Shown here piece by piece: positions 2,879-35,269 of a stretch of 64,000 nucleotides of DNA. Every line of letters starts with the position of its first letter. Position 1 is the first letter of the stretch. The DNA lies in assembly GCA_029351405.1 (NCBI GenBank), contig GCA_029351405.1_4841.1, one strand, 5' to 3'. The DNA comes from Escherichia coli. Its GTDB lineage: Bacteria > Pseudomonadota > Gammaproteobacteria > Enterobacterales > Enterobacteriaceae. A program made the translations under genes and the position numbers. The notes beneath the pieces were generated by a model. The model was not told where the DNA came from. It did no database searches and saw nothing but the letters and a program-made list of their open reading frames with translations.

Positions 2879-3541
2879 TTACACCTCCACCGCGTGAGAC
2901 TTCAGGAGTTCATCAATCTCTTTCTGTCCCATGTATGAGAACGGGGTGCGCTGGTAGAACGCCCAGAGTACTAACTGGACAACAGCACGGGAACGGGTTT
3001 CGGCCGTCATCACCAGGCCACTGAAATGAGGAGACTCAGCTGTCCATTGTATCTCTTCGCCCAGGTCTTGATTACAGGTCACCGAGATGCGGAACTTGTT
3101 GCACAGATTGTCGACTTCTTTGTACGCATCGGTAGACACACGAAGTTGTTCCGCATGTGCCCACGGAGTTGTGACGATTCTTTCACCCATCACTTTATCA
3201 GAGATAAACCAATCAATACATTCGGTAAACTCACTAAAATGGTCGATACGATAAATGCAGTCTCCCCCTTCCATAGAACGCATGGCATGATAGCGAGCGT
3301 CGATTTCGTTGTTGTGCATCGCGTTGAAGTCGATGAACACGCGACGCGCCAGCACAACATCTTCTGGTTGAAGTGCCAGGAAATCGTTCAGGCGGCTATA
3401 ATGGAGGACATTGGAACCGTCGTGGCCACGTGTGCAATATGCGTAATGGCTACCGATACGGGCGTGGGCAATATAAGACAACGGGGCGAAGAATAATCCG
3501 TCAGGATCAGGACCGACGATAATAGAATAAAGTTTTTCCAT
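2879..3541 (-). CDS. hypothetical protein (220 aa)
   Basis: ORF 2879-3640 trimmed to internal ATG at 3541 (MEKLYS...); shares the CTATATC-ATG-GAAAAA initiation motif. Confidence 0.5.
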   Translation of the reverse strand: MEKLYSIIVGPDPDGLFFAPLSYIAHARIGSHYAYCTRGHDGSNVLHYSRLNDFLALQPEDVVLARRVFIDFNAMHNNEIDARYHAMRSMEGGDCIYRIDHFSEFTECIDWFISDKVMGERIVTTPWAHAEQLRVSTDAYKEVDNLCNKFRISVTCNQDLGEEIQWTAESPHFSGLVMTAETRSRAVVQLVLWAFYQRTPFSYMGQKEIDELLKSHAVEV

Positions 3542-3597
3542 GATATAGTCACTCAAATGAAAGGGCAGCTTTATGATAAGCCGCCCGAGGTTATTGA

Positions 3598-4464
3598 TTA
3601 TTGGAAATCGCCAACATACATGTTCAGCTTGTCGTCCCAATTCAGAACGACACGGATCGTTCCGGTATCTTCTGGGAAGGTCAGTTTGTCACACATGGCG
3701 CGATTAACATAAGTCCCGCTCTGGTTGACGTTGTAGTCCTTGCCTTGCATGATACCAAAACGCTTGAAGTCGCGAGTGACCATCATGTTCAACGTGGTCC
3801 ACGGAATGATGTCACGCAAGGCTTTGCACAGGACGATCTTGCCATCCGACCTGAACGACACAAACAGCTCGTTGGCGATACGACGGCGAGTAGGCGGTTC
3901 AAGTTCACGCAGGGAAATGAATTGTGAATTCTTTACCTTTTCTGCCAGCGCCTGTACTTCTGCTGGATCCGGCTTGAACGGCTCCACTGAAGAGTCAGAC
4001 TTCATCACAACATCACCCTTGCGCTTCTCAACCAATTGCTTCACAGCCTTTTGACTCACGGGCGGGAGGTATTTGGACTTAGGAACAACCGCTGGCTTGA
4101 TGACAGGGCTTGCATCTGGTTTCGCCTTTGGGGTACTCCGAGCCGCACGCAGCTTTTCCTGGGCTTGTAGAATGCGCTCTTGACGAGAAAGCGGAGCCTT
4201 TGGGGTGATCTTCGTACTGAAGTCAGAAACTCCGACCCAGTCACCCTGGTCGTTGCGCTTGGCGACCAGAGTCAGTTTGTGGATGATACCCTGAAGTTTG
4301 CTCTCACGTAAGTTGTCGGCATACCAGAACTTCGCGCCCATCTCGAACTTCTCGGCGAAGATCACGCGAGCGTCTTCGTGTACCAACATAACTTTGGCTG
4401 CGTTGGGGGCAAAAGCCTTATTCTTTTCGATAATCGCCGCAGCGATTGTTTTGGTCAGGAGCAT
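3598..4464 (-). CDS. hypothetical protein (288 aa) with Lys/Pro-rich central linker
   Basis: Long ORF, ATG at 4464 (GTG one codon upstream), AAGGA RBS. Confidence 0.5.
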   Translation of the reverse strand: MLLTKTIAAAIIEKNKAFAPNAAKVMLVHEDARVIFAEKFEMGAKFWYADNLRESKLQGIIHKLTLVAKRNDQGDWVGVSDFSTKITPKAPLSRQERILQAQEKLRAARSTPKAKPDASPVIKPAVVPKSKYLPPVSQKAVKQLVEKRKGDVVMKSDSSVEPFKPDPAEVQALAEKVKNSQFISLRELEPPTRRRIANELFVSFRSDGKIVLCKALRDIIPWTTLNMMVTRDFKRFGIMQGKDYNVNQSGTYVNRAMCDKLTFPEDTGTIRVVLNWDDKLNMYVGDFQ

Positions 4465-4503
4465 CACAGTGTATTCCTTCAGTTCACAATGTAGGGCTAA
4501 ATT

Positions 4504-4833
4504 TTAACCCGAAACTTTATTTTGAAATCCGACAAAGTCCTGGGCAATTCCCCGGCAATACATCAGGTCTTTCTTCGTTTGTGCACTGTTGTCAGCCGCA
4601 GTCAGCATCATGGGAAGGTCCAGCGCATTCTCTATCTGATCAACACTGAACAGATCAAGGCGCTTCAGCTCTCCCTCGAAGTCAGACAGTAGGATAGATG
4701 TGTCTTTGTCATCTGGGTGGAACTGCTGATACGTCTCCATCCATGCCACACATGTGTTCAGTTTGGACGGTGGCGCAGCGTTTACACACCCGGCTATCAG
4801 TACCAACAAGAGCAGGATTTTACATTTCATCAC
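4504..4833 (-). CDS. predicted lipoprotein
   Basis: 109 aa; N-terminus MMKCKILLLLVLIAGC has a hydrophobic core plus lipobox L-I-A-G-C. Confidence 0.55.
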   Translation of the reverse strand: MMKCKILLLLVLIAGCVNAAPPSKLNTCVAWMETYQQFHPDDKDTSILLSDFEGELKRLDLFSVDQIENALDLPMMLTAADNSAQTKKDLMYCRGIAQDFVGFQNKVSG

Positions 4834-5516
4834 TCGTTCTCCTTCATCATATTGTCGCAGTCAACGCGAGTCTGCTGGAGTTCGCGTGACATGCGAGGAT
4901 CATCAAGGTTCACGCTCAGATTCGTGGCCAGGTCTTTCAGACCGTTCTGAACCCTGTCTTCAAAGTAATAATCGTTCTCAACCAACCAGGCTCTGAGACC
5001 GAGAGCGCGAGTGCGCCATTCCTTCTTCAGGACGCGATCAGAGGTCTGCGTAGCGCTGTATTCGAATACTTTGATGCACTGGTTGCCATCGTTGATAAGG
5101 TTCAGGTGGCGGCGACCAACCTGCACACCCTTCTGTAATGCCGGAGAAGGGAGCGAACGACACTGTCTTACGGTCATTCGGCCTTGGGTGCCCATACGCC
5201 CAGTCATGATTAAATCGCCAGCCTCCATGCCTCCACGGTTAAATTCGTCGTCATTGAGGTAGCCCTTGAGGTTATAGGCTCCCTGTTTGTAACGGTTGAA
5301 CTCAATTCCGGCATTGACGACAGCAGTGGAGACGTTGCCTGTGTTCCAGAGTTCAGCGAAGTTCTCTATGGAACCAGACTTGTCGATGGCAACCGCCTGG
5401 GAGAACCCAGCACAATAGGAAAGGTCGGACCACAGTTTATCACCTGTGGAGTTCAGATTGGCAGCGGCGGGTAATGCCAGACCAGCCAGCACAACCCCGA
5501 GGATTAAACGTTTCAT
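4830..5516 (-). CDS. secreted/periplasmic protein (228 aa)
   Basis: ORF 4830-5681 trimmed to ATG 5516 with AGGAGA RBS; N-terminus MKRLILGVVLAGLALPAAA is a classic signal peptide. Confidence 0.55.
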   Translation of the reverse strand: MKRLILGVVLAGLALPAAANLNSTGDKLWSDLSYCAGFSQAVAIDKSGSIENFAELWNTGNVSTAVVNAGIEFNRYKQGAYNLKGYLNDDEFNRGGMEAGDLIMTGRMGTQGRMTVRQCRSLPSPALQKGVQVGRRHLNLINDGNQCIKVFEYSATQTSDRVLKKEWRTRALGLRAWLVENDYYFEDRVQNGLKDLATNLSVNLDDPRMSRELQQTRVDCDNMMKENE

Positions 5517-5595
5517 GGTGATTCTCCTTATTTCATTGGATGAAATGATAGGCGGCTCACCATGTTGAGTAAAGGGTTTCAATAAACTATCGTAT

Positions 5596-6045
5596 TCAGA
5601 AACGGGTATCGCTGACCGTTCTGTATCGCACACCCTGAAACTGTTTAGCGAGTTTAACAAATTCCATCGCTGGTAAATCAACTTTGTAGACCTTCATGCG
5701 CTGTTTGCCGTCCATGTTCAACGCAGCGACAAATCGGTGTGAGCCGTCAACAACGTAATTGTCAGAAGACACCCAAACCCGACCCATAGGTTTCTTATTT
5801 CTGATGTTCTTCATGATCTTCCAGACCTTCATCTTGTTGATTTCGTTCTGGGTAAGACGAAGCATTTTGATGGGCACTTGCGCAGCATCTATGGACACGC
5901 CGTTGTCTTCAAGATATTTGTGAAAATCTTCTTGTTTGTCGGCATCGATTTGCGGCATAGAAGAACGAGAAAGCCCGAGGTTCCCAACAGGAATCCTCAG
6001 GCCGTTAATGATGTTCAACCAGTCAATAAAAGATGTAAGGAACAT
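5596..6045 (-). CDS. ParB-N-like (DGxHR motif) domain protein
   Basis: 149 aa; VVDGSHRFVAA resembles the ParB/sulfiredoxin-fold DGxHR motif; GAGGTG RBS. Confidence 0.4.
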   Translation of the reverse strand: MFLTSFIDWLNIINGLRIPVGNLGLSRSSMPQIDADKQEDFHKYLEDNGVSIDAAQVPIKMLRLTQNEINKMKVWKIMKNIRNKKPMGRVWVSSDNYVVDGSHRFVAALNMDGKQRMKVYKVDLPAMEFVKLAKQFQGVRYRTVSDTRF

Positions 6046-6077
6046 GACACACCTCGGGATATAGGGTTATCCCTTAG

Positions 6078-6236
6078 TTAGCGCATCCATCGATCCTTTC
6101 TCTCTTTCTCCTTGCGTTCGCGACGTTTCTGGTCGGATCGGAATAACCAATAGAAGAAGTTCCCACCCAAGATGAAAACCACCGCGATTATTACTAGGAC
6201 ACCCTTCACAATTTCCCAAACCAATTCTTTATCCAA
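6078..6236 (-). CDS. small single-pass membrane protein
   Basis: Hydrophobic segment VLVIIAVVFILGGNFFYWLF followed by basic tail RSDQKRRERKEKERK; probable TTG start just after upstream stop with GAGGTG RBS. Confidence 0.35.
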   Translation of the reverse strand: MDKELVWEIVKGVLVIIAVVFILGGNFFYWLFRSDQKRRERKEKERKDRWMR

Positions 6237-6237
6237 A

Positions 6238-6525
6238 TTACACCTCGTCTTCTTCAGGTCCACCGTCAATCAGGATACGAGCGGTGTCGAAAGTTTCCCC
6301 ACCCGTGTTCAACAGCTTGGTTAGATCATCAAGAGTACCGACAGGACCAAGATCAGCCTGGCGGAGAACGAACTCTAGAAGCCCGTAGAGCGCTGATTGG
6401 AAACGGGAGTTGTCGATATCGTTCTTGACTTCCATCAGGCGGACAACATTGGCAGACTGGACATAACTCAGCTGAGTCTTACCTTTTGCCATGTCTTTCA
6501 CGGAACGGCGTTGTTCAGGCGTCAT
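6238..6525 (-). CDS. hypothetical protein (95 aa)
   Basis: ATG with G-rich RBS; ATGA overlap with upstream gene. Confidence 0.45.
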   Translation of the reverse strand: MTPEQRRSVKDMAKGKTQLSYVQSANVVRLMEVKNDIDNSRFQSALYGLLEFVLRQADLGPVGTLDDLTKLLNTGGETFDTARILIDGGPEEDEV

Positions 6526-6899
6526 AATGTTCCACCCCCGACAGAGATCAAGAACTCTTCTTGCATGGTCTTGACCGGGTGGTGGTTTCGGATTTCGATC
6601 ATGAAGCCCCAGCCGCCGTCGGCGACGTTGCCAAAGGTCTTGACGCCAAAGGACTTCGTCCCGTTGGAGCAGGAATAGATGTCCAGGACGTATGGGCTAC
6701 CCTGATTGTCGATCCCACGATTCACGTCTTCTGATACGCAGCGCTCAATCATCTTCCCGTTCTTATACAGAACGAGGTCTTGGCCATACGCCTTGAAAGC
6801 ATAAACACCGTTGGTAGACACTCCGGTGATGACAGGAGGGGCGGAAACAGCAGCAAAGGAAGCGCCTAGCAGGGCAACAGCGAGGATTAACTTTTTCAT
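6522..6899 (-). CDS. secreted protein (125 aa)
   Basis: ORF trimmed to ATG 6899; N-terminus MKKLILAVALLGASFAAVSA is a signal peptide; CTATATC-ATG-AAAAA initiation motif. Confidence 0.5.
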   Translation of the reverse strand: MKKLILAVALLGASFAAVSAPPVITGVSTNGVYAFKAYGQDLVLYKNGKMIERCVSEDVNRGIDNQGSPYVLDIYSCSNGTKSFGVKTFGNVADGGWGFMIEIRNHHPVKTMQEEFLISVGGGTL

Positions 6900-6923
6900 G
6901 ATATAGTCTCTTGGTTTCAAATG

Positions 6924-6945
6924 GGCGGGGTATGATTACCCCGCC
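6924..6945 (-). terminator. hairpin GGCGGGGTA-TGAT-TACCCCGCC plus TTTGAAA tail
   Basis: Downstream of the 168-aa gene; same stem as the hairpin at 7484-7504. Confidence 0.45.
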
Positions 6946-6951
6946 GTGGGT

Positions 6952-7458
6952 TTATAGAGTAACAAGTGATACGGTAAAAACCATCGTCCCGTCTGTTGCC
7001 ATTTTTCTTGAAACTGGTATGACGCGAGGCTGGCAGAATATCCATTCTTTCTCCATGGACGCCAAGTCCAGCATATCCATTTCTGATTCATCGCCTTTGT
7101 TCACAAATTTTTCTAGAGAACCATAGACATTAAGCCCCTCCGGGAGTCCGTTTCGATGTTTGTAACAAATGCGGGCAACAGCTTTGGTTCCGTACGATTT
7201 AGAAAATTGTTTGGCCACATGCTTCAGTTCACTGAAGCTAAGACAAGAATCCCATGTCTGGAACATGTCGCCTCGTTCAAACATCATCTCTAAACGCGCA
7301 ACGTCCTCTTTAGGCAGCCCGCGATAAAGTGTGGTCGTCTGTGGTTCGCGTAATTCTTGCACCAGATCACGGACGGCAGGGGAAACAGTACCGGGGCGCA
7401 TTATGTGGGACTTATCATGGACGAGGTAAAATAAATCTTGAATTTGTTGATCGGTCAT
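6952..7458 (-). CDS. hypothetical protein (168 aa)
   Basis: ORF trimmed to ATG 7458 (MTDQQIQ...), AGGAA RBS, flanked by two copies of the same hairpin. Confidence 0.5.
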   Translation of the reverse strand: MTDQQIQDLFYLVHDKSHIMRPGTVSPAVRDLVQELREPQTTTLYRGLPKEDVARLEMMFERGDMFQTWDSCLSFSELKHVAKQFSKSYGTKAVARICYKHRNGLPEGLNVYGSLEKFVNKGDESEMDMLDLASMEKEWIFCQPRVIPVSRKMATDGTMVFTVSLVTL

Positions 7459-7483
7459 GGTATAGTTCCTGCATTTCAAATAG

Positions 7484-7504
7484 ACGGGGTAATCATACCC
7501 CGCC
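7484..7504 (-). terminator. hairpin CGGGGTA-ATCA-TACCCCG plus TTTGAAA tail
   Basis: Downstream of the 63-aa gene; copy of the 6924 hairpin with an inverted loop. Confidence 0.45.
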
Positions 7505-7564
7505 CAAAGTTATAGAATTAACTGATGTGCTTCAGAAGAGCGAAGAGGATCGCGGCCTTGGCCT

Positions 7565-7756
7565 TTACCTTTCCCACGATACCTGTCTCGACATCAACTT
7601 CTTCAGCAACCCACTCTTTCCCTTCTTGCTGATGATAACGTCACGACGCTGTGCGTAGACTTCTTTGGTCGCATACACACGACGGAACCCTTTAGCGCGG
7701 AGCAAGCCCCAATTGCGATCAATTTCTACTGAGGTTTCTACCATTTTGTTCTTCAT
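7565..7756 (-). CDS. hypothetical small protein (63 aa); possible -1 frameshift extension to 7511
   Basis: ATG at 7756; 0-frame stop at 7565; -1 frame stays open to 7511 (see slippery-site feature). Confidence 0.4.
   Translation of the reverse strand: MKNKMVETSVEIDRNWGLLRAKGFRRVYATKEVYAQRRDVIISKKGKSGLLKKLMSRQVSWER
7616..7622 (-). other. candidate -1 ribosomal slippery heptamer G_GGA_AAG
   Basis: Minus-sense codons AAG AAG GGA AAG place GGA and AAG in the zero frame, matching the X_XXY_YYZ pattern; the -1 frame is open for 35 further codons. Confidence 0.25.
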
Positions 7757-7807
7757 GTTATAATCTTACCTTTCAACCCGGTGAACCCATCGTTCGCCAG
7801 TTATTGA

Positions 7808-7837
7808 ATAATAGGACATTCCTTAGAGGAAGTAAAC
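7808..7837 (-). promoter_or_regulatory. sigma70-like promoter (GTTTAC-18 nt-TATTAT)
   Basis: Follows the terminator after the ACP-like gene and precedes the 63-aa gene. Confidence 0.35.
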
Positions 7838-7852
7838 CCCTAAAAGTAAAAA

Positions 7853-7872
7853 TCCCCAACGTTTGTTGGGGA
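7853..7872 (-). terminator. intrinsic terminator after the ACP-like gene
   Basis: TCCCCAAC-GTTT-GTTGGGGA followed on the minus strand by TTTTT. Confidence 0.55.
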
Positions 7873-7878
7873 CTTCTG

Positions 7879-8202: not shown

Positions 8203-8221
8203 GCTACTTCTCCCAAAGAAT

Positions 8222-8237
8222 GGCGGGTTGCCCCGCC
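8222..8237 (-). terminator. hairpin GGCGGG-TTGC-CCCGCC
   Basis: Between the vWA gene end and the ACP-like gene start. Confidence 0.35.
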
Positions 8238-8244
8238 CGTTGGA

Positions 8245-10446: not shown

Positions 10447-10615
10447 CGTTTTGACCTTTTTGGGCTTTGGAGTGTTTGGAGTTCGCGTCGGCGTTCTCCA
10501 GCATAGTTTCAATGAAATCCCGGTTGTTTTCCATTTGGGCGACCAGAACATCACTGGGGCGGAATGATTTGTCAAGACAATCAAGTCCGGCGCGTTTTAA
10601 TTTGTTGTCGGTCAT
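10439..10615 (-). CDS. small hypothetical protein
   Basis: 58 codons from ATG 10615 (listed ORF begins at a TTG); weak RBS. Confidence 0.25.
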   Translation of the reverse strand: MTDNKLKRAGLDCLDKSFRPSDVLVAQMENNRDFIETMLENADANSKHSKAQKGQNDD

Positions 10616-10660
10616 CAGGCTCTCGTGAGTTATATTTCCCAACTATTTCAACATGGAACT

Positions 10661-10691
10661 ATTATATTACGACAGGCGGTATTGATGTCAA
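10661..10691 (-). promoter_or_regulatory. sigma70-like promoter (TTGACA-17 nt-TAATAT)
   Basis: Minus-strand TTGACATCAATACCGCCTGTCGTAATATAAT in the AT-rich spacer upstream of the vWA operon. Confidence 0.4.
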
Positions 10692-10765
10692 TTAATATAA
10701 TAAAAATACCCGATTGAATATAACCGGGCATTATATTATTGACAGGTTGAAATATTATTCAGAGC

Positions 10766-16811: not shown

Positions 16812-17276
16812 TTATTCGCTTTTGGCCTTTGTAGGCCGGATAATGTATTTTGGGACCAGCTTCCATTCAGGAACCTGATCGTGTTTAACCACTTTAATGC
16901 GTGACATATCAGCGGCTTCGGTGACCTGCTCAGGATGAATGACCTTCACCATGTTCCACTGCTCCAGCAGCTTGATGATTCGGTTCATCCTCAGGACATC
17001 TTCGCGGTTAAATCCGTTGTAATGCCCGTCCAGCATAAATAGATGCTTAAAGTGGACGATATAATACTTACCACACTTATGAAGAATATGGCAAGTCTGA
17101 TACAGAGTATTCGGCTCTTGGCGCGTGTTTACCCCAATTCGACTCAGTGTTTCCTTGATCCCCAGGAATATACCTGGCCGATCTTGGTTCAATTGAACTT
17201 CAACCATACAATCAACGATGCTGGCCTCATCGTTGACTGCTGAAATATTCAATATGTCTAGCGTATTACGCGCCAT
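16812..17276 (-). CDS. regA: RegA-like translational repressor
   Basis: 154 aa; LYQTCHILHKCGKYYIVHFKHLFMLDG and WKLVPKYIIRP match the conserved T4 RegA core; position after the clamp-loader genes matches T4 order. Confidence 0.8.
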   Translation of the reverse strand: MARNTLDILNISAVNDEASIVDCMVEVQLNQDRPGIFLGIKETLSRIGVNTRQEPNTLYQTCHILHKCGKYYIVHFKHLFMLDGHYNGFNREDVLRMNRIIKLLEQWNMVKVIHPEQVTEAADMSRIKVVKHDQVPEWKLVPKYIIRPTKAKSE

Positions 17277-17731: not shown

Positions 17732-18721
17732 TCACTTCCACTTGATGTTGAGCATGACATTGGTCAGGAAAAACACAGCATGCAACCAGACATCGCCGAC
17801 TTGGCGGTGTTCAATCTGAGACTGACCACATACGCACACCAGATCAGGGATAGACTCATTCTGAACCAACATTTGCTTCTCTTTATCCTGTGGCACACAG
17901 AACTGGAAGAAGCGGGAATAGAAGTCTTCAGTGATATAGTTCTGGTTGTCGGTCACCCACTGCTTCATCCCAGCCCAGTCATTATCCTTCAACATATTCA
18001 CCAACATGCCCATATCGGCCGATTTTAACACAGCCAGTGCACGTTCGTCGATCTTGCCGTAAGTGGTGACGTTATCCTGTAGAACACCCATGATGCGGCG
18101 GTTATCAGGGAAATGGCGCTTGACAATAGCAGCCAACACAGGAGGGTCATACTCAACACCTTCGCTGCGAAGGATTTCAGCACAGCGGCGCATGAACTGA
18201 AGTTTGACCTCATCAGCCTCAGTCTCATTCCAGATAAAGTCGATTTCACGGCAACGAGAGCGCAGAGGTTCGTTCACACGTTGCTTGGCGTTGGTGGTCA
18301 GGATGAATGAACAGTTCTTGGAGACCTTCTCCACAATACCCTTCAGCGACTCCTGCGCCGCCATAGACAGACGCTCTACTTCGTCGAGGATAACGACTTT
18401 GCGACCACCGAATACACTCACACCAGTAGAGTACTGAATCACGCGGTCACGGATAACGTCGATACTGTTGTCCAGGGATGCGTTGATCATCAGTGGTTGC
18501 TTACAACCGATCTCGTTACACACAGCCAGGGCGGAGGTAGTCTTGCCAGTACCAGGCTGAGGGGAGTAGAACAGCATAGACGGGATGTTACCGTTGCCGC
18601 TGGTGATGTAGCCATGGATTTTAGCGCGGACGTCTTGAGGGATGATAATCTCGTCCAGGTTGTCAGGGCGGAAACGGTTCTCCCAGGCGTACTGGTCTTT
18701 TACAATCGTGATATTAGACAT
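17732..18721 (-). CDS. clamp loader large subunit (gp44-like AAA+ ATPase)
   Basis: 329 aa; Walker A PQPGTGKTT, Walker B VVILDEV, SRC motif (SRCREIDF) of RFC-type clamp loaders. Confidence 0.85.
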   Translation of the reverse strand: MSNITIVKDQYAWENRFRPDNLDEIIIPQDVRAKIHGYITSGNGNIPSMLFYSPQPGTGKTTSALAVCNEIGCKQPLMINASLDNSIDVIRDRVIQYSTGVSVFGGRKVVILDEVERLSMAAQESLKGIVEKVSKNCSFILTTNAKQRVNEPLRSRCREIDFIWNETEADEVKLQFMRRCAEILRSEGVEYDPPVLAAIVKRHFPDNRRIMGVLQDNVTTYGKIDERALAVLKSADMGMLVNMLKDNDWAGMKQWVTDNQNYITEDFYSRFFQFCVPQDKEKQMLVQNESIPDLVCVCGQSQIEHRQVGDVWLHAVFFLTNVMLNIKWK

Positions 18722-19377
18722 TATGTATTTCCATGATATAGTTTACAGAACAGAACCCAAGCGTCGTCATCATACGGGTTCCAGCCCTCTTTGAATTTGT
18801 TTAACATACTCGTTGCGGTGTTCTCTTTAATAGAGAACAAACGGGCAATTCTATGGCACCCATCACCAGTAGAAACCCAGTGATCATACACTACCCCAGC
18901 CTTTAACCACATCGGTCTGGTGTTGTGTAGCAGCGCAGCCCCGGTGTCCCAGGGTTTTATTCCTGCGGCGGGGTGGCTTTTACCAGTTCTTCCGTGCATG
19001 GGATGAAGATTCCCAGACTTGCCCTTCAACCAACTCGAGACACCAACTCGGTGATGTTTAGGTCCCGCTGACCTACCGTTGGCGATACCACAACCCCGTG
19101 GCTGAAATGATTTGTTTAAACATTTTGGGTGATCAATGTTCTCACTAATCAACTGCTGCTCTCTCCAATATGCTTCTTCTGGGGAGTCAAACAGTTCTAC
19201 GAATTCTACATCAAAGAAATCAGAACCTTTCTTAGATATGATTTCCTTGACTGTTTGTGAAGAAGTGAAATATGAAGTGAACAATTGTAAAGGATGTGCA
19301 CCCAATTTCGTTCTAGAACCAAAATAGAAAGAACCATCCTTCCCTAACAAATGATATACAAACGGTTGGTTCCTCAT
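18721..19377 (-). CDS. GIY-YIG-like homing endonuclease gene inserted between the clamp and clamp-loader genes
   Basis: ORF trimmed to ATG 19377 with GAGG RBS; N-terminus FVYHLLGKDGSFYFGS resembles the GIY...YIG motif. Confidence 0.45.
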   Translation of the reverse strand: MRNQPFVYHLLGKDGSFYFGSRTKLGAHPLQLFTSYFTSSQTVKEIISKKGSDFFDVEFVELFDSPEEAYWREQQLISENIDHPKCLNKSFQPRGCGIANGRSAGPKHHRVGVSSWLKGKSGNLHPMHGRTGKSHPAAGIKPWDTGAALLHNTRPMWLKAGVVYDHWVSTGDGCHRIARLFSIKENTATSMLNKFKEGWNPYDDDAWVLFCKLYHGNT

Positions 19378-19409
19378 TTCAGCCTCGTGTAGAAGAATCA
19401 TTTCAAATA

Positions 19410-19428
19410 GGCGGGGAACTCCCCCGCC
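19410..19428 (-). terminator. hairpin GGCGGGG-AACT-CCCCGCC plus TATTTGAAA
   Basis: Between the sliding clamp gene and the endonuclease gene. Confidence 0.45.
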
Positions 19429-19458
19429 CACACATTATAGCATCAGGCTGGAGATTGA

Positions 19459-20127
19459 TTACTCAATCTGTGCGCCGACGAAGTAATTGATCGTCGCGTC
19501 GGATGATTGGAAGTTCACCATCTGTAGATCAGCACATGCACGCAGAGTGTAGTTGCCTTCGATCATTTTCAGGTTGGCAACATCCAGCGGCATTACGAAG
19601 TCCGGCAGCGCGGTTTCGCCCAGCTCAACAGTGTAATTGTTGGAGTTGTCCAGGGTAGTGGTGGTTGCAACCAGGCGTGTTTTGCCACCCTGAGCAACCA
19701 GACGCACAGTCTTATGTCCTAGGGTAGAGCAGGCGCGGGTCAGTTCTTTCATCTTCTCTGGAGTGATGATCGCTTCAAAATCGACAGACGGCAGTTCAAT
19801 GGTGTCAGCCGGAACAACAGTGAGTTCTTTAGCAGAACGCCAGAATTGCAGCTGAGAGCTTTCGCCTTTCAACAGGATGTAGTCCTGATGGAATTCGGCT
19901 TTGGCACCTTTGAAGGAAGGTAGGCGCTGGATGGCCAGAAGTTTGGTCAGGTCCAGAATCGGGAACTCAAACGGGAAGTCTTCTTCGATCTGCGCCACGG
20001 CGATCACAGTAGAAGAATCATTAATACTGCGCAGCATCTTGCCCGGTGTCAGAACGATAGATGGGTTGATGGTCTCAAAGTTGGCCAGCAACTGAAGTGT
20101 ACGTTCAGAGAGAGTGATCTCTTGCAT
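19459..20127 (-). CDS. sliding clamp (gp45-like)
   Basis: 222 aa, the size of T4 gp45; N-terminus LQLLANFETINPSIVL resembles gp45; sits upstream of the clamp-loader genes. Confidence 0.7.
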   Translation of the reverse strand: MQEITLSERTLQLLANFETINPSIVLTPGKMLRSINDSSTVIAVAQIEEDFPFEFPILDLTKLLAIQRLPSFKGAKAEFHQDYILLKGESSQLQFWRSAKELTVVPADTIELPSVDFEAIITPEKMKELTRACSTLGHKTVRLVAQGGKTRLVATTTTLDNSNNYTVELGETALPDFVMPLDVANLKMIEGNYTLRACADLQMVNFQSSDATINYFVGAQIE

Positions 20128-26191: not shown

Positions 26192-26512
26192 TCACAGCGC
26201 CCCAAGATTGCCGATTACGTACAGGGAGCACAGAGGAGTGCCTGACGAACGAGGTTCGATCGTCATCCCGCTCAGGCGGATCAGTTCCAGTAAGCCGTCA
26301 GTGGTCTGATACGCGCGTGTCGAACCGTTCGGTCGATATAGCTCCAGCTCAGTTCGCCCTTCCTTTATTGCATTGCGAATGCGAGTGAACACGCTGTGGT
26401 CGCCGAATTTCTGTTTCAGAATATCCAGTTTGGTGGTCAGGCGGCGACGCGATTTGCGCGCACGAGGGTTCTCTTTTACGACCGCTTCTAAAATCGGGAT
26501 GCTGTTAGTCAT
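26192..26512 (-). CDS. hypothetical protein (106 aa)
   Basis: ATG with AGAGGA RBS; sigma70-like promoter about 150 nt upstream. Confidence 0.45.
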   Translation of the reverse strand: MTNSIPILEAVVKENPRARKSRRRLTTKLDILKQKFGDHSVFTRIRNAIKEGRTELELYRPNGSTRAYQTTDGLLELIRLSGMTIEPRSSGTPLCSLYVIGNLGAL

Positions 26513-26660
26513 GATAAAGTCCTCTATTTGTAGGGGATAGGGTATGCGGTTAACATACCCTGTTCAAAGGTTTAGAACAAATTGCTGCAATGTTACTTTG
26601 TAACGAGAGTGGTGATAGTTCCTTCATTTCAGAGTCAGTGTTGTGCTGCTTATGGAATGA

Positions 26661-26689
26661 AGTATATGGGGTTTATTGAAGAAGTAAAC
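26661..26689 (-). promoter_or_regulatory. sigma70-like promoter (GTTTAC-17 nt-TATACT)
   Basis: Minus-strand GGGGTTTACTTCTTCAATAAACCCCATATACT upstream of the 106-aa gene. Confidence 0.35.
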
Positions 26690-26713
26690 CCCGTTTATTG
26701 AATAAATTTAAAT

Positions 26714-26950: not shown

Positions 26951-26958
26951 GTTTGACC

Positions 26959-27402
26959 TCAGTTGTTAATGCGGAACAGTTGTGGATAACCACCTGGATG
27001 CCCTTCTCCGGTCACGAAGACCTCGTACCGGGCACCTTTAACCAAACCGGGCAAATTGCCTGAGTCGAGCAGATAGCGGATTTTATCCATAGTGTCCATC
27101 CAGGACTTAGCAGGTTCAGCTTCAGCCTCTCCACGATTGAGGACGAGTTCACCTTCAGAATAATACTTCCCGCTGTCCTTCATGTAGTACAGCTTGATAT
27201 GGATATACTGAGGGGATGGGACCAAACGCCAGCCGTCATCAATCAGATCCTGGCGATCATTATCCAGGGACTGGTAATCGATCTCACCAGACGCCAGACC
27301 ATAGCTGCGCATGTAGCGGAACTTCTCAACACGGTCTTTCACGTCAGAGATGAAGAACTCCTTCGCGGCTGGACTGATAAAAATGTATTTCTCTTTTGAC
27401 AT
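26959..27402 (-). CDS. hypothetical protein (147 aa)
   Basis: ORF trimmed to ATG 27402; GGAAGGAA RBS and CTATATC-ATG initiation motif. Confidence 0.5.
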   Translation of the reverse strand: MSKEKYIFISPAAKEFFISDVKDRVEKFRYMRSYGLASGEIDYQSLDNDRQDLIDDGWRLVPSPQYIHIKLYYMKDSGKYYSEGELVLNRGEAEAEPAKSWMDTMDKIRYLLDSGNLPGLVKGARYEVFVTGEGHPGGYPQLFRINN

Positions 27403-27419
27403 GATATAGTTCCTTCCTT

Positions 27420-27644
27420 TCAAAGAATGATGTGTTTGTCGATATCGGACTGCGTTGCAATCTCCCAGCGGACGATGTTCTCGGTTGTGATGAAATCACG
27501 GTTCAGGTGAGAGGCTGGCACATACACCAATGTGTTGACCATGAAGTAGCGCTGCTCATTGTTCCAGGAGTCAACATAAGCCTCAATAAGGCACACTTCG
27601 ATCACTTCGCCTTTCGGATTCTTCACAGTCTTTTTCAGATACAT
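27420..27644 (-). CDS. hypothetical protein (74 aa)
   Basis: ORF trimmed to ATG 27644 with GAGGG RBS. Confidence 0.4.
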   Translation of the reverse strand: MYLKKTVKNPKGEVIEVCLIEAYVDSWNNEQRYFMVNTLVYVPASHLNRDFITTENIVRWEIATQSDIDKHIIL

Positions 27645-28616: not shown

Positions 28617-28669
28617 GATGACCTCCAATTAGTTTGGCACATCATATAGCGAATCCACATAATGAAAAA

Positions 28670-28685: not shown

Positions 28686-28708
28686 TTTTGTAGGACCAGC
28701 CTGTTAGA

Positions 28709-30040: not shown

Positions 30041-30122
30041 TCCTTACATTGATATTCAGTTAAGTTGAAATTACTTAGTAGTTCAAAATCAAGCCCCCTT
30101 TCGAGGGCTGTGGCTGCTAAAA

Positions 30123-30977: not shown

Positions 30978-31003
30978 GATTGTTTCCTTCTGAACGATTT
31001 TCA

Positions 31004-31011
31004 GTATTTAG
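31004..31011 (-). promoter_or_regulatory. late-promoter-like motif CTAAATAC
   Basis: About 30 nt upstream of the scaffold gene start at 30977. Confidence 0.45.
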
Positions 31012-31022
31012 TGAGGCTGAAT

Positions 31023-31691: not shown

Positions 31692-31698
31692 TCGCTCC

Positions 31699-32004
31699 TT
31701 AACTCAGTCCCATCATACGACGGAACTTCATTGCTTTTTTCTTACGACGCTCGATTTTGCGCTGGTATCCCATACCCATGCGTTTCTTGGCTCGGATCGC
31801 CTTGCGGTTGCCCAGCTTGCGAGTACGGCGCTCACTGGCGACCATCACCTCACAACGGGAACCATCCGCAGACAGTTTGAAACCAGGAGCACACTGCAGA
31901 CGGCGACGGCGTTTGCCTTTTGCGTTCACCTTGTCAATGACTTTCTGCTCATCCATGCGGGAAGCCAGGAAATCAGCGAACGTTGCAACTTCTTCGATTT
32001 CCAT
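31699..32004 (-). CDS. basic prohead core protein (gp68-like, by position)
   Basis: 101 aa, Arg/Lys-rich; AAGAGGAA RBS. Confidence 0.45.
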   Translation of the reverse strand: MEIEEVATFADFLASRMDEQKVIDKVNAKGKRRRRLQCAPGFKLSADGSRCEVMVASERRTRKLGNRKAIRAKKRMGMGYQRKIERRKKKAMKFRRMMGLS

Positions 32005-32016
32005 GATACATTCCTC

Positions 32017-32187
32017 TTACTGGTCGTCGCCGAAAGGACCCATGTCTTGGCTCAGGGAGTTCAAGACATATTCAGTGCCCTGCTGGACCAGTTCTTGGGC
32101 GCGAGCGGACAGTTCCATTTCGCATTCAGCAGTAGCGGCATCAGTATCACCAGCGATGATTGCTTTTACCAGATCGATAGCGGCCAT
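32017..32187 (-). CDS. small acidic prohead core protein (gp67-like, by position)
   Basis: ORF trimmed to ATG 32187; acidic 56-aa product between portal and gp68-like genes. Confidence 0.4.
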   Translation of the reverse strand: MAAIDLVKAIIAGDTDAATAECEMELSARAQELVQQGTEYVLNSLSQDMGPFGDDQ

Positions 32188-32224
32188 GTTCATATCCTCT
32201 AAATGTTTTCTATACTTAGTCGAA

Positions 32225-33919
32225 TTATTCTTCACCACCAGGAGGGTTAGTCGCTGGGATGACGTTAGGTCTGAATTTCAGTGGACTGACTTCCCCGCTG
32301 CCGAAGCCGCCGGACTCATCTGCCTGCACTTCAGGGTATTTGCCTTCTTTCTTCTCTTTCTCGATCTTCTCTTGCTGGTCTTTGATGTCTTCATCGGACA
32401 TACGCAGCAAATTGCGTTGAGCAAAATCGATAGAGAAGAGAGTGCCGATATATGGTTCGATCTGACCGAGAGCCGCCATACGCTGTGACAAGATTTCGTT
32501 CTCTTGTTGTTCACGGATGAAGCTGTCAGAAGTGAATTCGAACTTGACGAACGGCTTGATCTTCTCATTCCAGTCAGCCTGATCTGTAATGCCTTTCAAT
32601 ATCAGCTGGCGGCGCAGAAGTTCCAGGAAGATACCAGAAGAATAACGACGGCGCAGGCTCGCACAGAACTTGTTGAAGCGCAGTTCTTCCTGTGTGATTT
32701 CAGCAAGATTGGAACCACCGATGTTGATGGAACCTTCCTCTTGCAGGCGGCTCTTAGGGATCATCAGAGCCTCGTAGAGCTTCTCGCGGAAGTATACCAC
32801 ATGATCCATTTGACCCAGTTGATCGCCACCGCCTACGTTGGAGATCTCGGTTGCGTTCTGCCCTTCGCGACGTGGTAGCCAGTAGTCCTCAGCGATACCC
32901 ATCAAATGAGTGTTACCAGCCACCTTACCAGTGGTGCGATCATACGCCAGACGGTTCTTGAATTTGCCCATCATGGCTTGCATGTATTCTTCGGCCGACT
33001 TCTTACCCAGCGTACCCACGTCGAGATAGAACGCTCGCTTCTCAGGAGCACGTGTGATCGCATAGATTACCGTTGCATCTTCAGTTGTAACAAGGTTGTT
33101 CAGGGGACGGATAGCCGGGTTCAGCAGGCTTGGCACAACCCCATTCGCCAGAGGCTCTTCACCACTGTCCAGATACACTATGCTCTCATCATCAAACACC
33201 AGCTCTTGCTGTGACGGTTGGAAGTTCTGAGACGTACCGGACTGGCCAGTGAATTGGTTGCGGTTGTAGTTCGGGTTGTAGTAGTATTGAAGTTTTACGT
33301 CATTGATGACTTCGATACCGTCGCGCATCGCTTTTTGAACGATGTATACAGGACGGATACAGCGTGAGTCCATCATGATGAGTTTGGCGATACCCGCTTT
33401 CTTGTTCTTCGGGTCCACTACAACGTGGAATGCCTGACGGCCTTCAATATACCATTTGCGGATCTTCTGATACGCCGTGTTGTCAAAGTCAAGGAGATGC
33501 ATGATCTCTTTGAATGCGTCAGTGATCTTCTCTTTGACTTCTTCTGTGATACCATCTACCTTTTCCAGGTTGATGGTTACAGGAGTCTCTTCCTCTTCAC
33601 AAGTGACGACGTCGTTGACAATGATATCCACAGCCTTACGAATCTCAGGCTGCTGAGCCATAGACTGGTACTCTTCGACCAGCTGTTTGACGTTGAGCAA
33701 CTCATTCTCAACACCAACGAAATTGAATGTGTTCGCGCCGCCCTGGAGGATGATGGAACCATCCTGAGAATCGTCCAGCGCAACAACAGTCGCTTTTGAA
33801 AGCAACTTCTCTTCTTGGTTCGTGACCATCTTGTCGGTATCAATCGGCGCTTCTACTTTGCCGCCTCTACCGAACAGGCCGAAGAACCCATTTCCGAATG
33901 CACCATTACCGAATGCCAT
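32225..33919 (-). CDS. portal vertex protein (gp20-like)
   Basis: 564 aa, the size and position of T4 gp20 (upstream of the prohead core genes, downstream of the tube gene). Confidence 0.85.
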   Translation of the reverse strand: MAFGNGAFGNGFFGLFGRGGKVEAPIDTDKMVTNQEEKLLSKATVVALDDSQDGSIILQGGANTFNFVGVENELLNVKQLVEEYQSMAQQPEIRKAVDIIVNDVVTCEEEETPVTINLEKVDGITEEVKEKITDAFKEIMHLLDFDNTAYQKIRKWYIEGRQAFHVVVDPKNKKAGIAKLIMMDSRCIRPVYIVQKAMRDGIEVINDVKLQYYYNPNYNRNQFTGQSGTSQNFQPSQQELVFDDESIVYLDSGEEPLANGVVPSLLNPAIRPLNNLVTTEDATVIYAITRAPEKRAFYLDVGTLGKKSAEEYMQAMMGKFKNRLAYDRTTGKVAGNTHLMGIAEDYWLPRREGQNATEISNVGGGDQLGQMDHVVYFREKLYEALMIPKSRLQEEGSINIGGSNLAEITQEELRFNKFCASLRRRYSSGIFLELLRRQLILKGITDQADWNEKIKPFVKFEFTSDSFIREQQENEILSQRMAALGQIEPYIGTLFSIDFAQRNLLRMSDEDIKDQQEKIEKEKKEGKYPEVQADESGGFGSGEVSPLKFRPNVIPATNPPGGEE

Positions 33920-33984
33920 GATTAAGTCCTCAACATTTTCTTGTAATTAGTGAGGGGGAATAAGATCCCCCAGCACTGAGGACA

Positions 33985-34518
33985 TTAGAGAGACTTGTCT
34001 GAGATGGCCTGGAAGTAACGCAGGTCAACAGTGAACTGAGTATAAGAGTCCATTGCAGACATGTCCAGTTCCAGCTGACCGAGGTTCTGAGGCCAGGTGC
34101 CCTGAAGGGTCCAAGTCTTGGTGACGTTGTCATTCGCATCCAGCAGTTCCATGATTACATCACGGAAATAATCATCTGGGTTAGCAGACGCACGGTTGTT
34201 GTTGCTGCCGTTGATATACTGCTGCCAGACTTCGAATGCGTTGTACGGGGCGTTGTCCACAACGTTGATAAACGTTACAGGCAGAGCCTCGAAGCGGCGG
34301 TCACCTGGGAATGGAAGTTCACGACCACCCCATGGGACGAGTATTTCCCCGAGCTGGCCTGTTGGGGTATTTGTGGTCACCGCCAACAGCGAAACATCAC
34401 GGATAGTATCGCTTCCAGCCACGAAGGAAGGGAAGTTAACAGTCACACGCCAACGGTGTTGGCGCTGAACGCCACCCCCGCGTGACATAGCTGCTCTGAA
34501 TTCATTAACTGTAGCCAT
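33985..34518 (-). CDS. tail tube protein (gp19-like)
   Basis: 177 aa; C-terminus WTLQGTWPQNLGQLELD ... QFTVDLRYFQ matches the gp19 C-terminal block; AGGAG RBS and late-promoter motif upstream. Confidence 0.8.
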   Translation of the reverse strand: MATVNEFRAAMSRGGGVQRQHRWRVTVNFPSFVAGSDTIRDVSLLAVTTNTPTGQLGEILVPWGGRELPFPGDRRFEALPVTFINVVDNAPYNAFEVWQQYINGSNNNRASANPDDYFRDVIMELLDANDNVTKTWTLQGTWPQNLGQLELDMSAMDSYTQFTVDLRYFQAISDKSL

Positions 34519-34543
34519 GGTCGTTCTCCTCTGAATAGTGTAA

Positions 34544-34551
34544 ATATTTAG
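34544..34551 (-). promoter_or_regulatory. late-promoter-like motif CTAAATAT
   Basis: About 28 nt upstream of the tail tube start at 34518. Confidence 0.45.
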
Positions 34552-34842
34552 TTTTGAAATAAATGGGGGTTAAAATACTCCAAAGTGAAGATATTTATTA
34601 TGTCATTCCCCGATAAAAATTATTCATGCTGGGAACGATGAAACGCAATCCGGGTTTGTTGGATAACATCCGACGACCGAAACTGAATGCCGCTCTTGGG
34701 TTGATAGTAAACTCAGGAAAGAGAAATTCCTTAAACTTGGATACGATGTAGAAGGTAAAACAGAGGATATGCTGGCGATAGAAGCCGGGTTGGGGCGTAT
34801 CTGGGGGTGTGGTCTTATCCGGTATGAACAGGAAAACTAAAA

Positions 34843-34858
34843 CCCCGCCTCAGCGGGG
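34843..34858 (-). terminator. hairpin CCCCGC-CTCA-GCGGGG plus T-tract
   Basis: Downstream of the inserted 118-aa gene. Confidence 0.5.
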
Positions 34859-34865
34859 TAAACTA

Positions 34866-35222
34866 CTATTTGCGAATGCCAACCTGAGCATAATACACAT
34901 GATAATCACCGTGGGTACGGAAGCTGGTGAGGTGGAAGGTGACGAGGTGGCTCCCGAAAGCTACAACTTTGGTATCTGGGGAGCATAAATCATTAGTTAG
35001 TTCACCCAGAACCTTACCACAAAACTCCCCAACAATAGCGTTAAATCTGTCAATGTGTGGACTGGTCACCGTCATTGGACCAACATCTGCACAGTAGATC
35101 CCTTTTATCATCTTTCCCTGGCTGTCGCGTACTGGCTTTGCAGGCTGGTAAGGGTTGACGCGGCGTTTCAGGTTACAGAGGCCGATTTCTTTCAGGATAG
35201 CGTTAATTTCGGTCTTGGTCAT
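34866..35222 (-). CDS. hypothetical protein inserted between sheath and tube genes
   Basis: ORF trimmed to ATG 35222; own promoter-like element and CTATATC-ATG initiation motif; terminator hairpins on both sides. Confidence 0.5.
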   Translation of the reverse strand: MTKTEINAILKEIGLCNLKRRVNPYQPAKPVRDSQGKMIKGIYCADVGPMTVTSPHIDRFNAIVGEFCGKVLGELTNDLCSPDTKVVAFGSHLVTFHLTSFRTHGDYHVYYAQVGIRK

Positions 35223-35269
35223 GATATAGATCCTTCGTTTCAAGTTGGTGTCGTACTGCTTATGTTTAG

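What the first reader, a model, noticed from the sequence alone, without database searches (positions are those of the whole stretch)
3535..35232. Shared translation-initiation motif CTATATC-ATG-(A/G)AAAA in a subset of genes
Four genes start with an identical 10-mer, (GA)CTATATCATG followed by an A-rich codon run (starts at 3541, 6899, 27402, 35222), and two more have close variants (7458 CTATACCATG; 26512 CTTTATCATG). This is far more frequent than chance for about 70 genes and suggests a common translational operator. The genome encodes a RegA-like repressor, which in T4 binds AU-rich initiation regions, so these genes may form its regulon.
Basis: inference. Interest (0 to 1): 0.4.

Follow-up and report, generated by a model that had tools for sequence, protein, structure and literature searches.

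The report
Shared ribosome-binding cassette of phage early genes
The repeated CTATATC-ATG is real: it is the conserved end of portable promoter/leader/ribosome-binding cassettes that an Ackermannviridae phage places in front of small, swappable accessory genes, and nothing yet ties it to the RegA repressor.

Summary
CTATATCATG occurs 5 times, all on the minus strand, against 0.12 expected. Four copies are gene starts. In the 97%-identical complete genome AV101, all 7 TATATCATG copies are annotated starts.

The window comes from an Ackermannviridae phage close to Agtrevirus AV101. The 10-mer is the 3' edge of a longer block, TTGAAA-N3-AGGAA-CTATATC-ATG. That block ends dispersed regulatory cassettes of two kinds: a GC hairpin plus ribosome-binding region, or a predicted early promoter (GTTTAC-N17-TATACT) plus a roughly 45-nt leader plus ribosome-binding region.

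The cassettes are at least 90% identical across five genera, with 2-3 copies per genome. The same cassette precedes unrelated ORFs in different phages, and homology stops at the ATG. Deletions and replacements have junctions inside the cassettes. This resembles the PeSL cassettes of T4-like phages.

The heptamer is also constrained in its own right. In one orthologue set it is 91% conserved, against 66% for third codon positions, and only transitions occur. It matches the phage-wide preferred start context (A-3, U-2, C-1).

A true RegA homologue exists, but genes 45, 44, 62 and regA lack the motif. The RegA-regulon idea is untested, not excluded. Interest is moderate.

The parts
3539..3548 (-). 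CTATATC-ATG initiation region of a 220-aa gene (2879-3541, phrog_5426, function unknown)
3552..3586 (-). TTTGAG box (3552-3557) and GC hairpin GGGCGGCTT/AAGCTGCCC (3563-3586) just upstream of that gene. The hairpin scores as terminator-like. One arm position is G-U on the sense RNA and would be C-A on the antisense strand.
6897..6945 (-). Type-A cassette before a 125-aa signal-peptide gene (6522-6899): hairpin 6924-6945, TTTGAAA 6915-6921, AAGAGA 6907-6912, CTATATCATG 6897-6906
7456..7505 (-). Type-A cassette before a 168-aa gene resembling an ADP-ribosylase (6952-7458): hairpin 7483-7505, TTTGAAA 7474-7480, GCAGGAA 7466-7472, CTATACCATG 7456-7465
7754..7836 (-). Predicted early promoter TTTACT-N17-TATTAT (7808-7836) and the first gene of the unit (ATG 7756). 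Its start context is TTATAAC here and TTATATC in relatives.
18732..18741 (-). The non-start copy. It lies in the last codons of a GIY-YIG-like homing endonuclease (18721-19377) inserted between gene 45 and gene 44, 11 nt before the gene 44 ATG (18721). The overlapping GGAAATACATAATG (18719-18732) serves as the gene 44 ribosome-binding region.
26510..26562 (-). Variant CTTTATCATG (26510-26519) with AGAGGA and hairpin CAGGGTATG/CATACCCTA (26538-26562) before a 106-aa gene. The whole intergenic element is conserved in Kuttervirus and Limestonevirus.
26615..26705 (-). Orphan type-B cassette: GTTTAC (26684-26689), N17, TATACT (26661-26666), leader CATAAGCAG..., then CTGAAATGAAGGAACTAT (26615-26632). 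It is cut inside the heptamer and the ORF start is deleted.
27400..27424 (-). TTTGAAA (27418-27424, containing the TGA stop of the upstream ORF), GGAAGGAA, and CTATATCATG (27400-27409) before a 147-aa gene (26959-27402)
35220..35298 (-). Type-B cassette between tail sheath and tail tube genes: TTTACT (35293-35298), N16, TATAAT (35271-35276), leader CATAAGCAGTACGACACC, CTTGAAA (35238-35244), GAAGGA (35231-35236), CTATATCATG (35220-35229). It precedes a rare 118-aa ORF (34866-35222).
Its own start region lacks the motif.

Best explanation
CTATATC-ATG is the 3' end of a conserved translation-initiation block of about 25 nt: TTGAAA at -21..-16, AGGAA at -12..-8, CTATATC at -7..-1, then ATG. This block closes a small family of portable regulatory cassettes in Ackermannviridae genomes. 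Type-B cassettes carry a sigma-70-type early promoter (GTTTAC/TTTACT, N16-17, TATACT/TATAAT) and a C/A-rich leader of about 45 nt. Type-A cassettes carry a GC-rich stem-loop, annotated as a terminator in a relative, placed directly before the block inside an early transcription unit. The cassettes drive small accessory ORFs in the variable parts of the genome. Because the copies resemble each other, they recombine, so ORFs behind them are deleted, replaced or newly joined, with the junction at or inside the block. This is the behaviour described for PeSL cassettes of T4-like phages. Inferred: the heptamer works as the spacer of a strong, poorly structured ribosome-binding site. It has a modest Shine-Dalgarno element (AAGGA or AGAGA) 8 nt from the AUG, and it gives the start context this phage prefers at most of its genes (A-3, U-2, C-1). 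Shown here: the anatomy, the copy number, the conservation across the family, the ORF swapping and junctions, and purifying selection on the heptamer. Inferred only: promoter activity and timing, strength of translation, and the absence of a dedicated repressor.
For: The longer block appears in the information profile of 65 distinct instances and in paralogues. The 91-nt type-B cassette occurs in 274 phage records from all Ackermannviridae genera sampled. It is at least 90% identical in 262 of them, with about 2 places per genome. Neighbouring proteins drop to 47-52% identity. The cassette before 35222 has 814 places in 281 records. In the clearest records, such as H153, the match ends one base after the ATG, and the ORF behind it is rare. 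LIMEstone1's authors annotated the same element as a putative early promoter. At one slot the same cassette heads at least 5 unrelated ORF families. Pairs with under 40% identity downstream keep 95% identity upstream. The slot between the 7756 and 6899 genes has three states: an ADP-ribosylase-like gene, denV, or empty with a hybrid cassette. The window's orphan cassette is a deletion between AAGGAACTAT in the block and a GCAGGAACTAT repeat 48 nt into the ORF. The heptamer equals the position-wise consensus of all starts. ATC precedes 31% of window starts but only 3% of all minus-strand ATGs and 6% of 70 E. coli starts. In 13 distinct orthologues of the 27402 gene the heptamer is 0.91 conserved. 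The SD region is 0.72, the upstream region 0.60, codon position 3 is 0.66 and codon positions 1-2 are 0.80. Motif start regions cost less to open: median 5.2 against 6.9 kcal/mol, P = 0.01. Genes with late promoters (CTAAATA, 11 in the window) and motif genes do not overlap.
Against: Only transitions occur in the heptamer (positions -6, -4 and -1). There are no A/T transversions. That is more specific than an 'A/U-rich, unstructured spacer' requires and would suit recognition by a protein. The accessibility advantage is modest. Promoters, terminators and timing are predictions, and no transcript or ribosome data exist for this family. Copy number (2-4 per genome) is far below that of PeSLs in T4-like phages. 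In type-A cassettes no promoter is evident. High identity across genera could partly reflect recent exchange rather than selection.
Confidence: 0.6

Rival explanations
1. RegA operator. The phage's RegA homologue binds the single-stranded CUAUAUC-AUG region, perhaps with the TTGAAA box, and shuts off translation of these early accessory mRNAs later in infection. The motif genes would then form its regulon.
For: A true RegA homologue is present with T18, R21 and W81 conserved. The motif sits exactly where T4 and RB69 RegA bind, between the SD and the AUG or over the AUG, in A/U-rich and poorly structured RNA (PMC3014915). Motif genes lie in predicted early units. The heptamer is under base-specific constraint with transitions only. 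Related variants (NTAYATY) form a graded series, like the hierarchy of T4 RegA sites.
Against: Genes 45, 44 (native form), 62 and regA, the conserved RegA targets in T4 and RB69, lack the motif. The copy next to gene 44 belongs to a homing-endonuclease insertion or its scar. The same start context is preferred at late structural genes, which RegA does not repress in T4. T4 and RB69 RegA sites have no fixed consensus and differ from this motif (aaAAUUGUUAUGUAA; UAA repeats; PMC3014915). RNA-contact residues K14 and F106 are not conserved. Much of the identity among sites is explained by shared cassettes.
Confidence: 0.2
2. Operator for another trans-acting factor. Candidates are a different phage RNA-binding protein, an endoribonuclease acting like T4 RegB on early Shine-Dalgarno regions, host CsrA or S1, an antisense RNA, or base pairing with 16S rRNA beyond the anti-SD.
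For: An element of 11-25 nt covering the SD and spacer of early genes parallels the long T4 RegB/S1 site GGAGRAYARAA (PMC3014915). There is base-specific constraint. The TTGAAA box sits at a fixed distance.
Against: The 'putative RegB' annotated in LIMEstone1 and its AV101 counterpart match only an SLT transglycosylase domain and a family of unknown function, not RegB. No antisense locus of 12 nt or more exists in AV101. E. coli 16S rRNA has no Watson-Crick complement of even 6 nt, and the only 7-nt match needs two G-U pairs and is at chance level. Rfam finds nothing in the window.
Confidence: 0.12
3. A DNA-level signal, such as a promoter or late-promoter variant or a repressor operator, that happens to abut start codons.
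For: CTATATC loosely resembles the family's late motif CTAAATA and a -10 hexamer. LIMEstone1's authors placed a 'putative middle promoter' -10 on AACTAT before gene 44.
Against: The motif is fused to the ATG at zero distance in 7 of 7 copies in AV101 and 16-17 of 20 in LIMEstone1. A transcript started from it would begin inside the ORF. TTGAAA lies 9 nt from TATATC, not 16-18. True late promoters lie 14-49 nt upstream of other genes. All copies are on the coding strand.
Confidence: 0.04
4. Chance, or merely the generic A/U-rich start context.
For: ATC before ATG and A/T at -6..-4 are general in this phage.
Against: 0.12 copies are expected from shuffles and 0.05 from the start-context matrix, against 4-5 observed. 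The same sites are conserved across genera.
Confidence: 0.02

Closest known systems
PeSL (promoter-early stem-loop) mobile regulatory cassettes of T4-like phages (Arbiol et al. 2010, PMC2839356; Comeau et al. 2014, PMC4122927)
   Same: Both are short repeated intergenic modules made of a stem-loop, a sigma-70-type early promoter, a Shine-Dalgarno sequence and the start codon at the 3' end. Both sit in variable regions before small ORFs of unknown function. Insertions, deletions and ORF replacements between related phages have their junctions in the modules.
   Different: This is a different phage family (Ackermannviridae). There are only about 2-4 copies per genome rather than dozens. A leader of about 45 nt and a base-specific heptamer next to the ATG are conserved across at least five genera. 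Type-A modules have the hairpin directly before the ribosome-binding region with no evident promoter. Minicircle excision is not testable here. No paper in the library links PeSLs with this family.
T4/RB69 RegA translational operators (Uzan and Miller 2010, PMC3014915)
   Same: Position between the SD and the AUG or over the AUG. A/U-rich RNA of low structure. Early-gene mRNAs. A RegA homologue is encoded next to gene 62.
   Different: T4 and RB69 sites lack a fixed consensus and are richer in A and U runs. The classic targets (genes 44, 45, 62, regA) lack this motif. No binding data exist.
[quoted passage not shown]
   Same: The type-B cassette promoter is the element annotated as 'putative early promoter' in LIMEstone1. 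CTAAATA late motifs are present in the window.
   Different: Those descriptions stop at the promoter hexamers. The conserved leader, the TTGAAA/AGGAA/CTATATC block, its dispersal and the ORF swapping are not part of them.
Strong phage ribosome-binding sites such as the T7 gene 10 leader (AAGGAGAUAUACAUAUG), recalled from general knowledge
   Same: An SD followed by an alternating A/U spacer of about 8 nt with low structure.
   Different: The resemblance is recalled, not tested. The SD is weaker here and the heptamer is fixed base by base.

Membership tests
PeSL-type mobile regulatory cassette | A sigma-70-like early promoter inside the module | tested here: inconclusive
   Type-B has GTTTAC/TTTACT, N16-17, TATACT/TATAAT, annotated as a putative early promoter in LIMEstone1. 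Type-A has no clear -35. There are no transcript data.
PeSL-type mobile regulatory cassette | A stem-loop (terminator-like) joined to the promoter | tested here: met
   CGGGG...CCCC flanks the -35 in the orphan cassette. GGGGCaaacGCCCC lies upstream of the AV101 79283 copy. Type-A cassettes have GC hairpins, annotated as a terminator in LIMEstone1.
PeSL-type mobile regulatory cassette | SD and start codon form the 3' end of the module | tested here: met
   Homology between copies stops at the ATG. In one search the clearest matches (e.g. H153) end one base after the ATG.
PeSL-type mobile regulatory cassette | Several copies per genome, in variable regions | tested here: met
   511 places in 274 records and 814 places in 281 records. 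This is only 2-4 per genome, fewer than in T4-like phages.
PeSL-type mobile regulatory cassette | Indels and ORF replacements between relatives with junctions in the modules | tested here: met
   Three states of the 7458 slot, including a hybrid cassette. At least 5 ORF families in the type-B slot. The orphan cassette is cut inside the heptamer.
PeSL-type mobile regulatory cassette | Excision of minicircles between tandem modules | not testable with these tools
   Needs PCR on infected cells, as in Arbiol et al. 2010.
RegA translational operator | A RegA protein is encoded by the phage | tested here: met
   PF01818, E = 2e-34. T4 RegA structure 1REG, E = 4e-26.
RegA translational operator | The site overlaps or lies just 5' of the AUG in unstructured A/U-rich RNA | tested here: met
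   The heptamer is at -7..-1. Opening energy is lower than for other genes.
RegA translational operator | Present on the conserved targets (genes 44, 45, 62, regA) | tested here: not met
   None carries it natively.
RegA translational operator | Specific binding and repression by RegA | not testable with these tools
   Needs gel shift, reporter assays or ribosome profiling.
T4 RegB/S1 cleavage site | A RegB endoribonuclease is encoded and the site has GGAG followed by an A-rich context | tested here: not met
   The 'putative RegB' of LIMEstone1 and the AV101 counterpart match SLT and DUF7270, not RegB. The block has GGAA-CUAUAUC, not GGAGRAYARAA (PMC3014915).
Ackermannviridae late promoter (CTAAATAcCcc) | The motif lies 14-49 nt upstream of late genes | tested here: not met
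   The 11 CTAAATA sites before gene starts belong to other genes. The heptamer abuts the ATG.

The most novel reading that the evidence does not exclude
The base-specific heptamer, together with the TTGAAA box at a fixed distance, is the operator of a dedicated post-transcriptional regulator, most plausibly the RegA homologue. That regulator would switch off a mobile set of early accessory genes. Any ORF captured behind a cassette would then acquire both early expression and timed shut-off. This would also give a RegA-family protein its first clear sequence consensus. A weaker variant: A-3/U-2/C-1 is a phage-specific start context that favours phage over host mRNAs.
Probability: 0.2. Interest if true: 0.55.

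Novelty: new member of a known kind. Interest (0 to 1): 0.35.

Why it matters
Gene regulation in Ackermannviridae is almost unstudied. These phages are widely used for biocontrol and diagnostics. The CBA120 paper could not find early promoters (PMC3184105), and a 2024 review of the family does not mention promoters or translational control. These cassettes give a concrete early expression module conserved across the family: promoter, leader and ribosome-binding site. They also mark the places where accessory genes are gained and lost, and they explain how unrelated ORFs come to share one start region. They could be used directly as insertion sites and expression signals for engineered phages. 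They also supply a defined RNA to test against the RegA homologue.

Tried and rejected
1. Chance or generic context was rejected by shuffles and by a start-context matrix.

2. Sigma-70 promoter reading of TTGAAA...TATATC: the spacing is 9 nt, not 16-18.

3. MotA-box reading on the opposite strand: the sequence is inconsistent between copies, and the family lacks MotA/AsiA (PMC3184105).

4. Loop-to-start-region pairing: the type-A loop UAUGAU could pair with AUCAUG. However, the loop is reverse-complemented between the window and AV101 at the same gene, so the pairing is not conserved.

5. Antisense RNA: there is no complementary locus of 12 nt or more in AV101.

6. Pairing with 16S rRNA: there is no Watson-Crick 6-mer, and the only 7-mer match, with G-U pairs, is at chance level.

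7. RegB-like nuclease: the annotated 'RegB' is not a RegB.

8. Known RNA family: there are no Rfam hits.

9. Gene 44 as a motif-bearing RegA target: the copy there comes from a homing endonuclease or its scar. AV101 and Det7 have a different native leader.

10. TCATGA palindrome: present in only 2 of 5 copies.

11. A literature search for transcript maps of this family found nothing useful.

12. Protein-based locus searches in IMG/VR gave only 9 and 5 loci, so most comparisons used GenBank phage records.

Full report
**Origin of the window.** The window matches Ackermannviridae phages at 96-97% identity. The closest are Enterobacter phage fGh-Ecl02 and Escherichia phages AV101, ZQ1 and PC3. 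Nearly all genes lie on the minus strand. It contains the T4-like cluster of gene 45, gene 44, gene 62 and regA, together with head and tail genes.

**Observation.**
- CTATATCATG occurs five times, always on the minus strand. Shuffles expect 0.12 copies.
- Four copies end in the start codon of a gene: ATG at 3541, 6899, 27402 and 35222.
- One-mismatch variants start the genes at 7458 and 26512.
- A position matrix built from the other 56 starts predicts 0.05 exact heptamers among 62 genes.
- The same matrix shows that A at -3, T at -2 and C at -1 are general. ATC precedes 19 of 62 starts but only 42 of 1275 minus-strand ATGs.
- I assembled the complete AV101 genome with its 199 annotated genes. 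TATATCATG occurs seven times there, and every copy is an annotated start.
- In LIMEstone1, 16-17 of 20 TA[TC]AT[CT]ATG copies are starts.

**The fifth copy.** The copy at 18732-18741 lies in the last codons of a GIY-YIG-like homing endonuclease. This endonuclease is inserted between gene 45 and gene 44. AV101 and Det7 lack the insertion and have a different gene 44 leader. RC-2014 lacks the endonuclease but keeps its 3' end as a scar, motif included. This copy is therefore not a native gene 44 signal.

**Anatomy of the block.** The 10-mer is the end of something longer. Aligning 65 distinct instances on the ATG gives three boxes at fixed spacing:
- TTGAAA at -21..-16
- AGGAA at -12..-8
- CTATATC at -7..-1

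Several paralogues share TTGAAA-n-GCAGGAACTATATCATGAC.

**Two upstream arrangements.**
- *Type A* (3541, 6899, 7458). A GC-rich hairpin is followed by (A)TTTGAAA. LIMEstone1 annotates this hairpin as a factor-independent terminator, and one copy scores as terminator-like here. The 7756, 7458 and 6899 genes follow a predicted early promoter at 7808-7836.
- *Type B* (35222, plus an orphan copy at 26615-26705). It has GTTTAC/TTTACT, N16-17, TATACT/TATAAT, then a leader of about 45 nt (CATAAGCAGYACRACAC...), then the block. LIMEstone1's authors annotated this as a putative early promoter.

The family's late motif CTAAATA occurs 12 times in the window. Eleven of these lie 14-49 nt before gene starts, and none of those genes carries the heptamer.

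**The cassettes are dispersed and conserved.**
- The 91-nt type-B cassette is found in 274 phage records covering Kuttervirus, Agtrevirus, Limestonevirus, Taipeivirus and Miltonvirus.
- It is at least 90% identical in 262 of these records, with about two places per genome.
- The cassette before 35222 has 814 places in 281 records. In the clearest records, such as H153, the match ends one base after the ATG. The ORF behind it is found in very few phages.
- By contrast, the neighbouring 147-aa protein falls to 47-52% identity in Taipeivirus.

**The cassettes mark sites of ORF exchange.**
- At the type-B slot, one cassette heads at least five unrelated ORF families in different phages. Pairs with under 40% identity after the ATG keep 95% identity before it.
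- In the window this slot is empty. The cassette runs ...GAAATGAAGGAACTAT and then jumps 48 nt into the ORF seen in LIMEstone1, at an internal GCAGGAACTAT repeat.
- The slot between the 7756 and 6899 genes has three states:
  - an ADP-ribosylase-like gene (window, L015)
  - denV (RC-2014, LIMEstone1, L014, L016)
  - no gene, with a hybrid cassette made of the 5' half of one copy and the 3' half of the other (L013, L017)
- This is the behaviour reported for PeSL cassettes in T4-like phages. Those modules likewise end in the SD and start codon (PMC4122927). No paper in the library links PeSLs with this family.

**The heptamer is constrained in its own right.**
- The 27402 gene has no promoter cassette. 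Its upstream sequence is coding, and it differs between genera.
- Across 13 distinct orthologues (47-100% protein identity) conservation is as follows:

| Region | Conservation |
|---|---|
| Heptamer | 0.91 |
| SD region | 0.72 |
| Farther upstream | 0.60 |
| Codon position 3 | 0.66 |
| Codon positions 1-2 | 0.80 |

- The only changes are transitions at -6, -4 and -1.
- The heptamer coincides with the position-wise consensus of all starts.
- ATC before the start codon is rarer in a 70-gene E. coli sample: 6%, against 31% in the window (P = 2e-4) and 16% in AV101 (P = 0.04).
- Motif start regions are somewhat easier to open: median 5.2 against 6.9 kcal/mol, P = 0.01.

**RegA.**
- The 154-aa protein at 16812-17276 is a true RegA homologue. 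T18, R21 and W81 are kept. K14 and F106 are not.
- T4 RegA sites overlap the AUG or lie just 5' of it, are A/U-rich and unstructured, lack a clear consensus, and belong to about 30 early and middle mRNAs (PMC3014915).
- The motif's position, composition and predicted early class fit that description. The base-specific constraint would suit a protein site.
- Against this, genes 45, 44, 62 and regA lack the motif. The same context is favoured at late structural genes. Shared cassettes already explain much of the identity among genes.
- I rate RegA control at about 0.2.

**Other readings.** I examined other trans-acting candidates and found no support: RegB, an antisense RNA, 16S rRNA pairing and known RNA families.

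**Conclusion.**
- The best-supported account is a PeSL-like family of early expression cassettes whose common ribosome-binding block ends in CTATATC-ATG.
- The block most likely acts as an efficient start region in the context this phage prefers.
- A dedicated repressor remains a live but untested alternative.

Noticed in passing
window 18721-19459 (minus strand); L003 18101-18206: A GIY-YIG-like homing endonuclease is inserted between gene 45 and gene 44. It takes over the native gene 44 leader and SD for itself. Its last codons supply a new ribosome-binding region (GGAAATACATAATG) for gene 44, and its stop overlaps the gene 44 start (TAATG). RC-2014 keeps only the 3' scar of this element.
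   Followed up: partly
window 6924-6945 against AV101 (L001 about 7310-7335): The hairpin before the 6899 gene has loop TAATCATA in the window but its reverse complement TATGATTA in AV101. The AV101 form equals the loop of the neighbouring 7458 hairpin. This suggests either a loop flip or gene conversion between the two adjacent cassettes.
   Followed up: partly
whole window and AV101 (all gene starts): There is a phage-wide start context A(-3) U(-2) C(-1). ATC precedes 31% of window starts and 16% of AV101 starts, late structural genes included. The figure is 6% in a 70-gene E. coli sample and 3% for all minus-strand ATGs. The cause is unknown.
   Followed up: partly
window minus strand: 22351, 25549, 31011, 34551, 37300, 41592, 48102, 53220, 55400, 58478, 62337: The family's late-promoter motif CTAAATA(cCcc) lies 14-49 nt before 11 gene starts (the twelfth copy, at 41552, is 643 nt from the next start). 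All 12 copies are on the minus strand and none on the plus strand.
   Followed up: yes
AV101 9092, 14199, 17036, 117763, 48231 (record coordinates): In promoters of the published TTCAAT-N14-TATAAT class, the -10 hexamer sits in the loop of a GC-rich hairpin (for example GGGGGATATAATTCCCCC). One stem-loop could therefore serve as the terminator of the upstream gene and hold the next promoter.
   Followed up: no
LIMEstone1 ORF086 (L026 22407-23021) and AV101 80025-80513: The protein annotated 'putative RegB' in LIMEstone1, and similarly in Miltonvirus 3M, matches a lytic transglycosylase (SLT) domain just below threshold and not RegB. The annotation looks wrong.
   Followed up: partly
window 34519-35355: The gap between the tail sheath and tail tube genes is a hot spot. 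The window holds a cassette-driven 118-aa ORF found in few other phages. AV101 has a 232-aa ORF there, Det7 has two GIY-YIG endonucleases, and RC-2014 and LIMEstone1 have a large endonuclease on the other strand.
   Followed up: partly
window 10584-10700 (minus strand): An AT-rich intergenic region holds a near-perfect sigma-70 promoter, TTGACA-N17-TATAAT, preceded by a hairpin and TTCAAT repeats. It lies upstream of a short TTG-start ORF.
   Followed up: no
L021 about 1597-1660 (LIMEstone1 ORF133) and relatives: ORF family 1 of the type-B slot contains, 48 nt into its coding sequence, a near-copy of the ribosome-binding block (CTGAATGCAGGAACTATCACC). A former start region may have been absorbed into the ORF. 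This repeat is the deletion endpoint in the window.
   Followed up: partly
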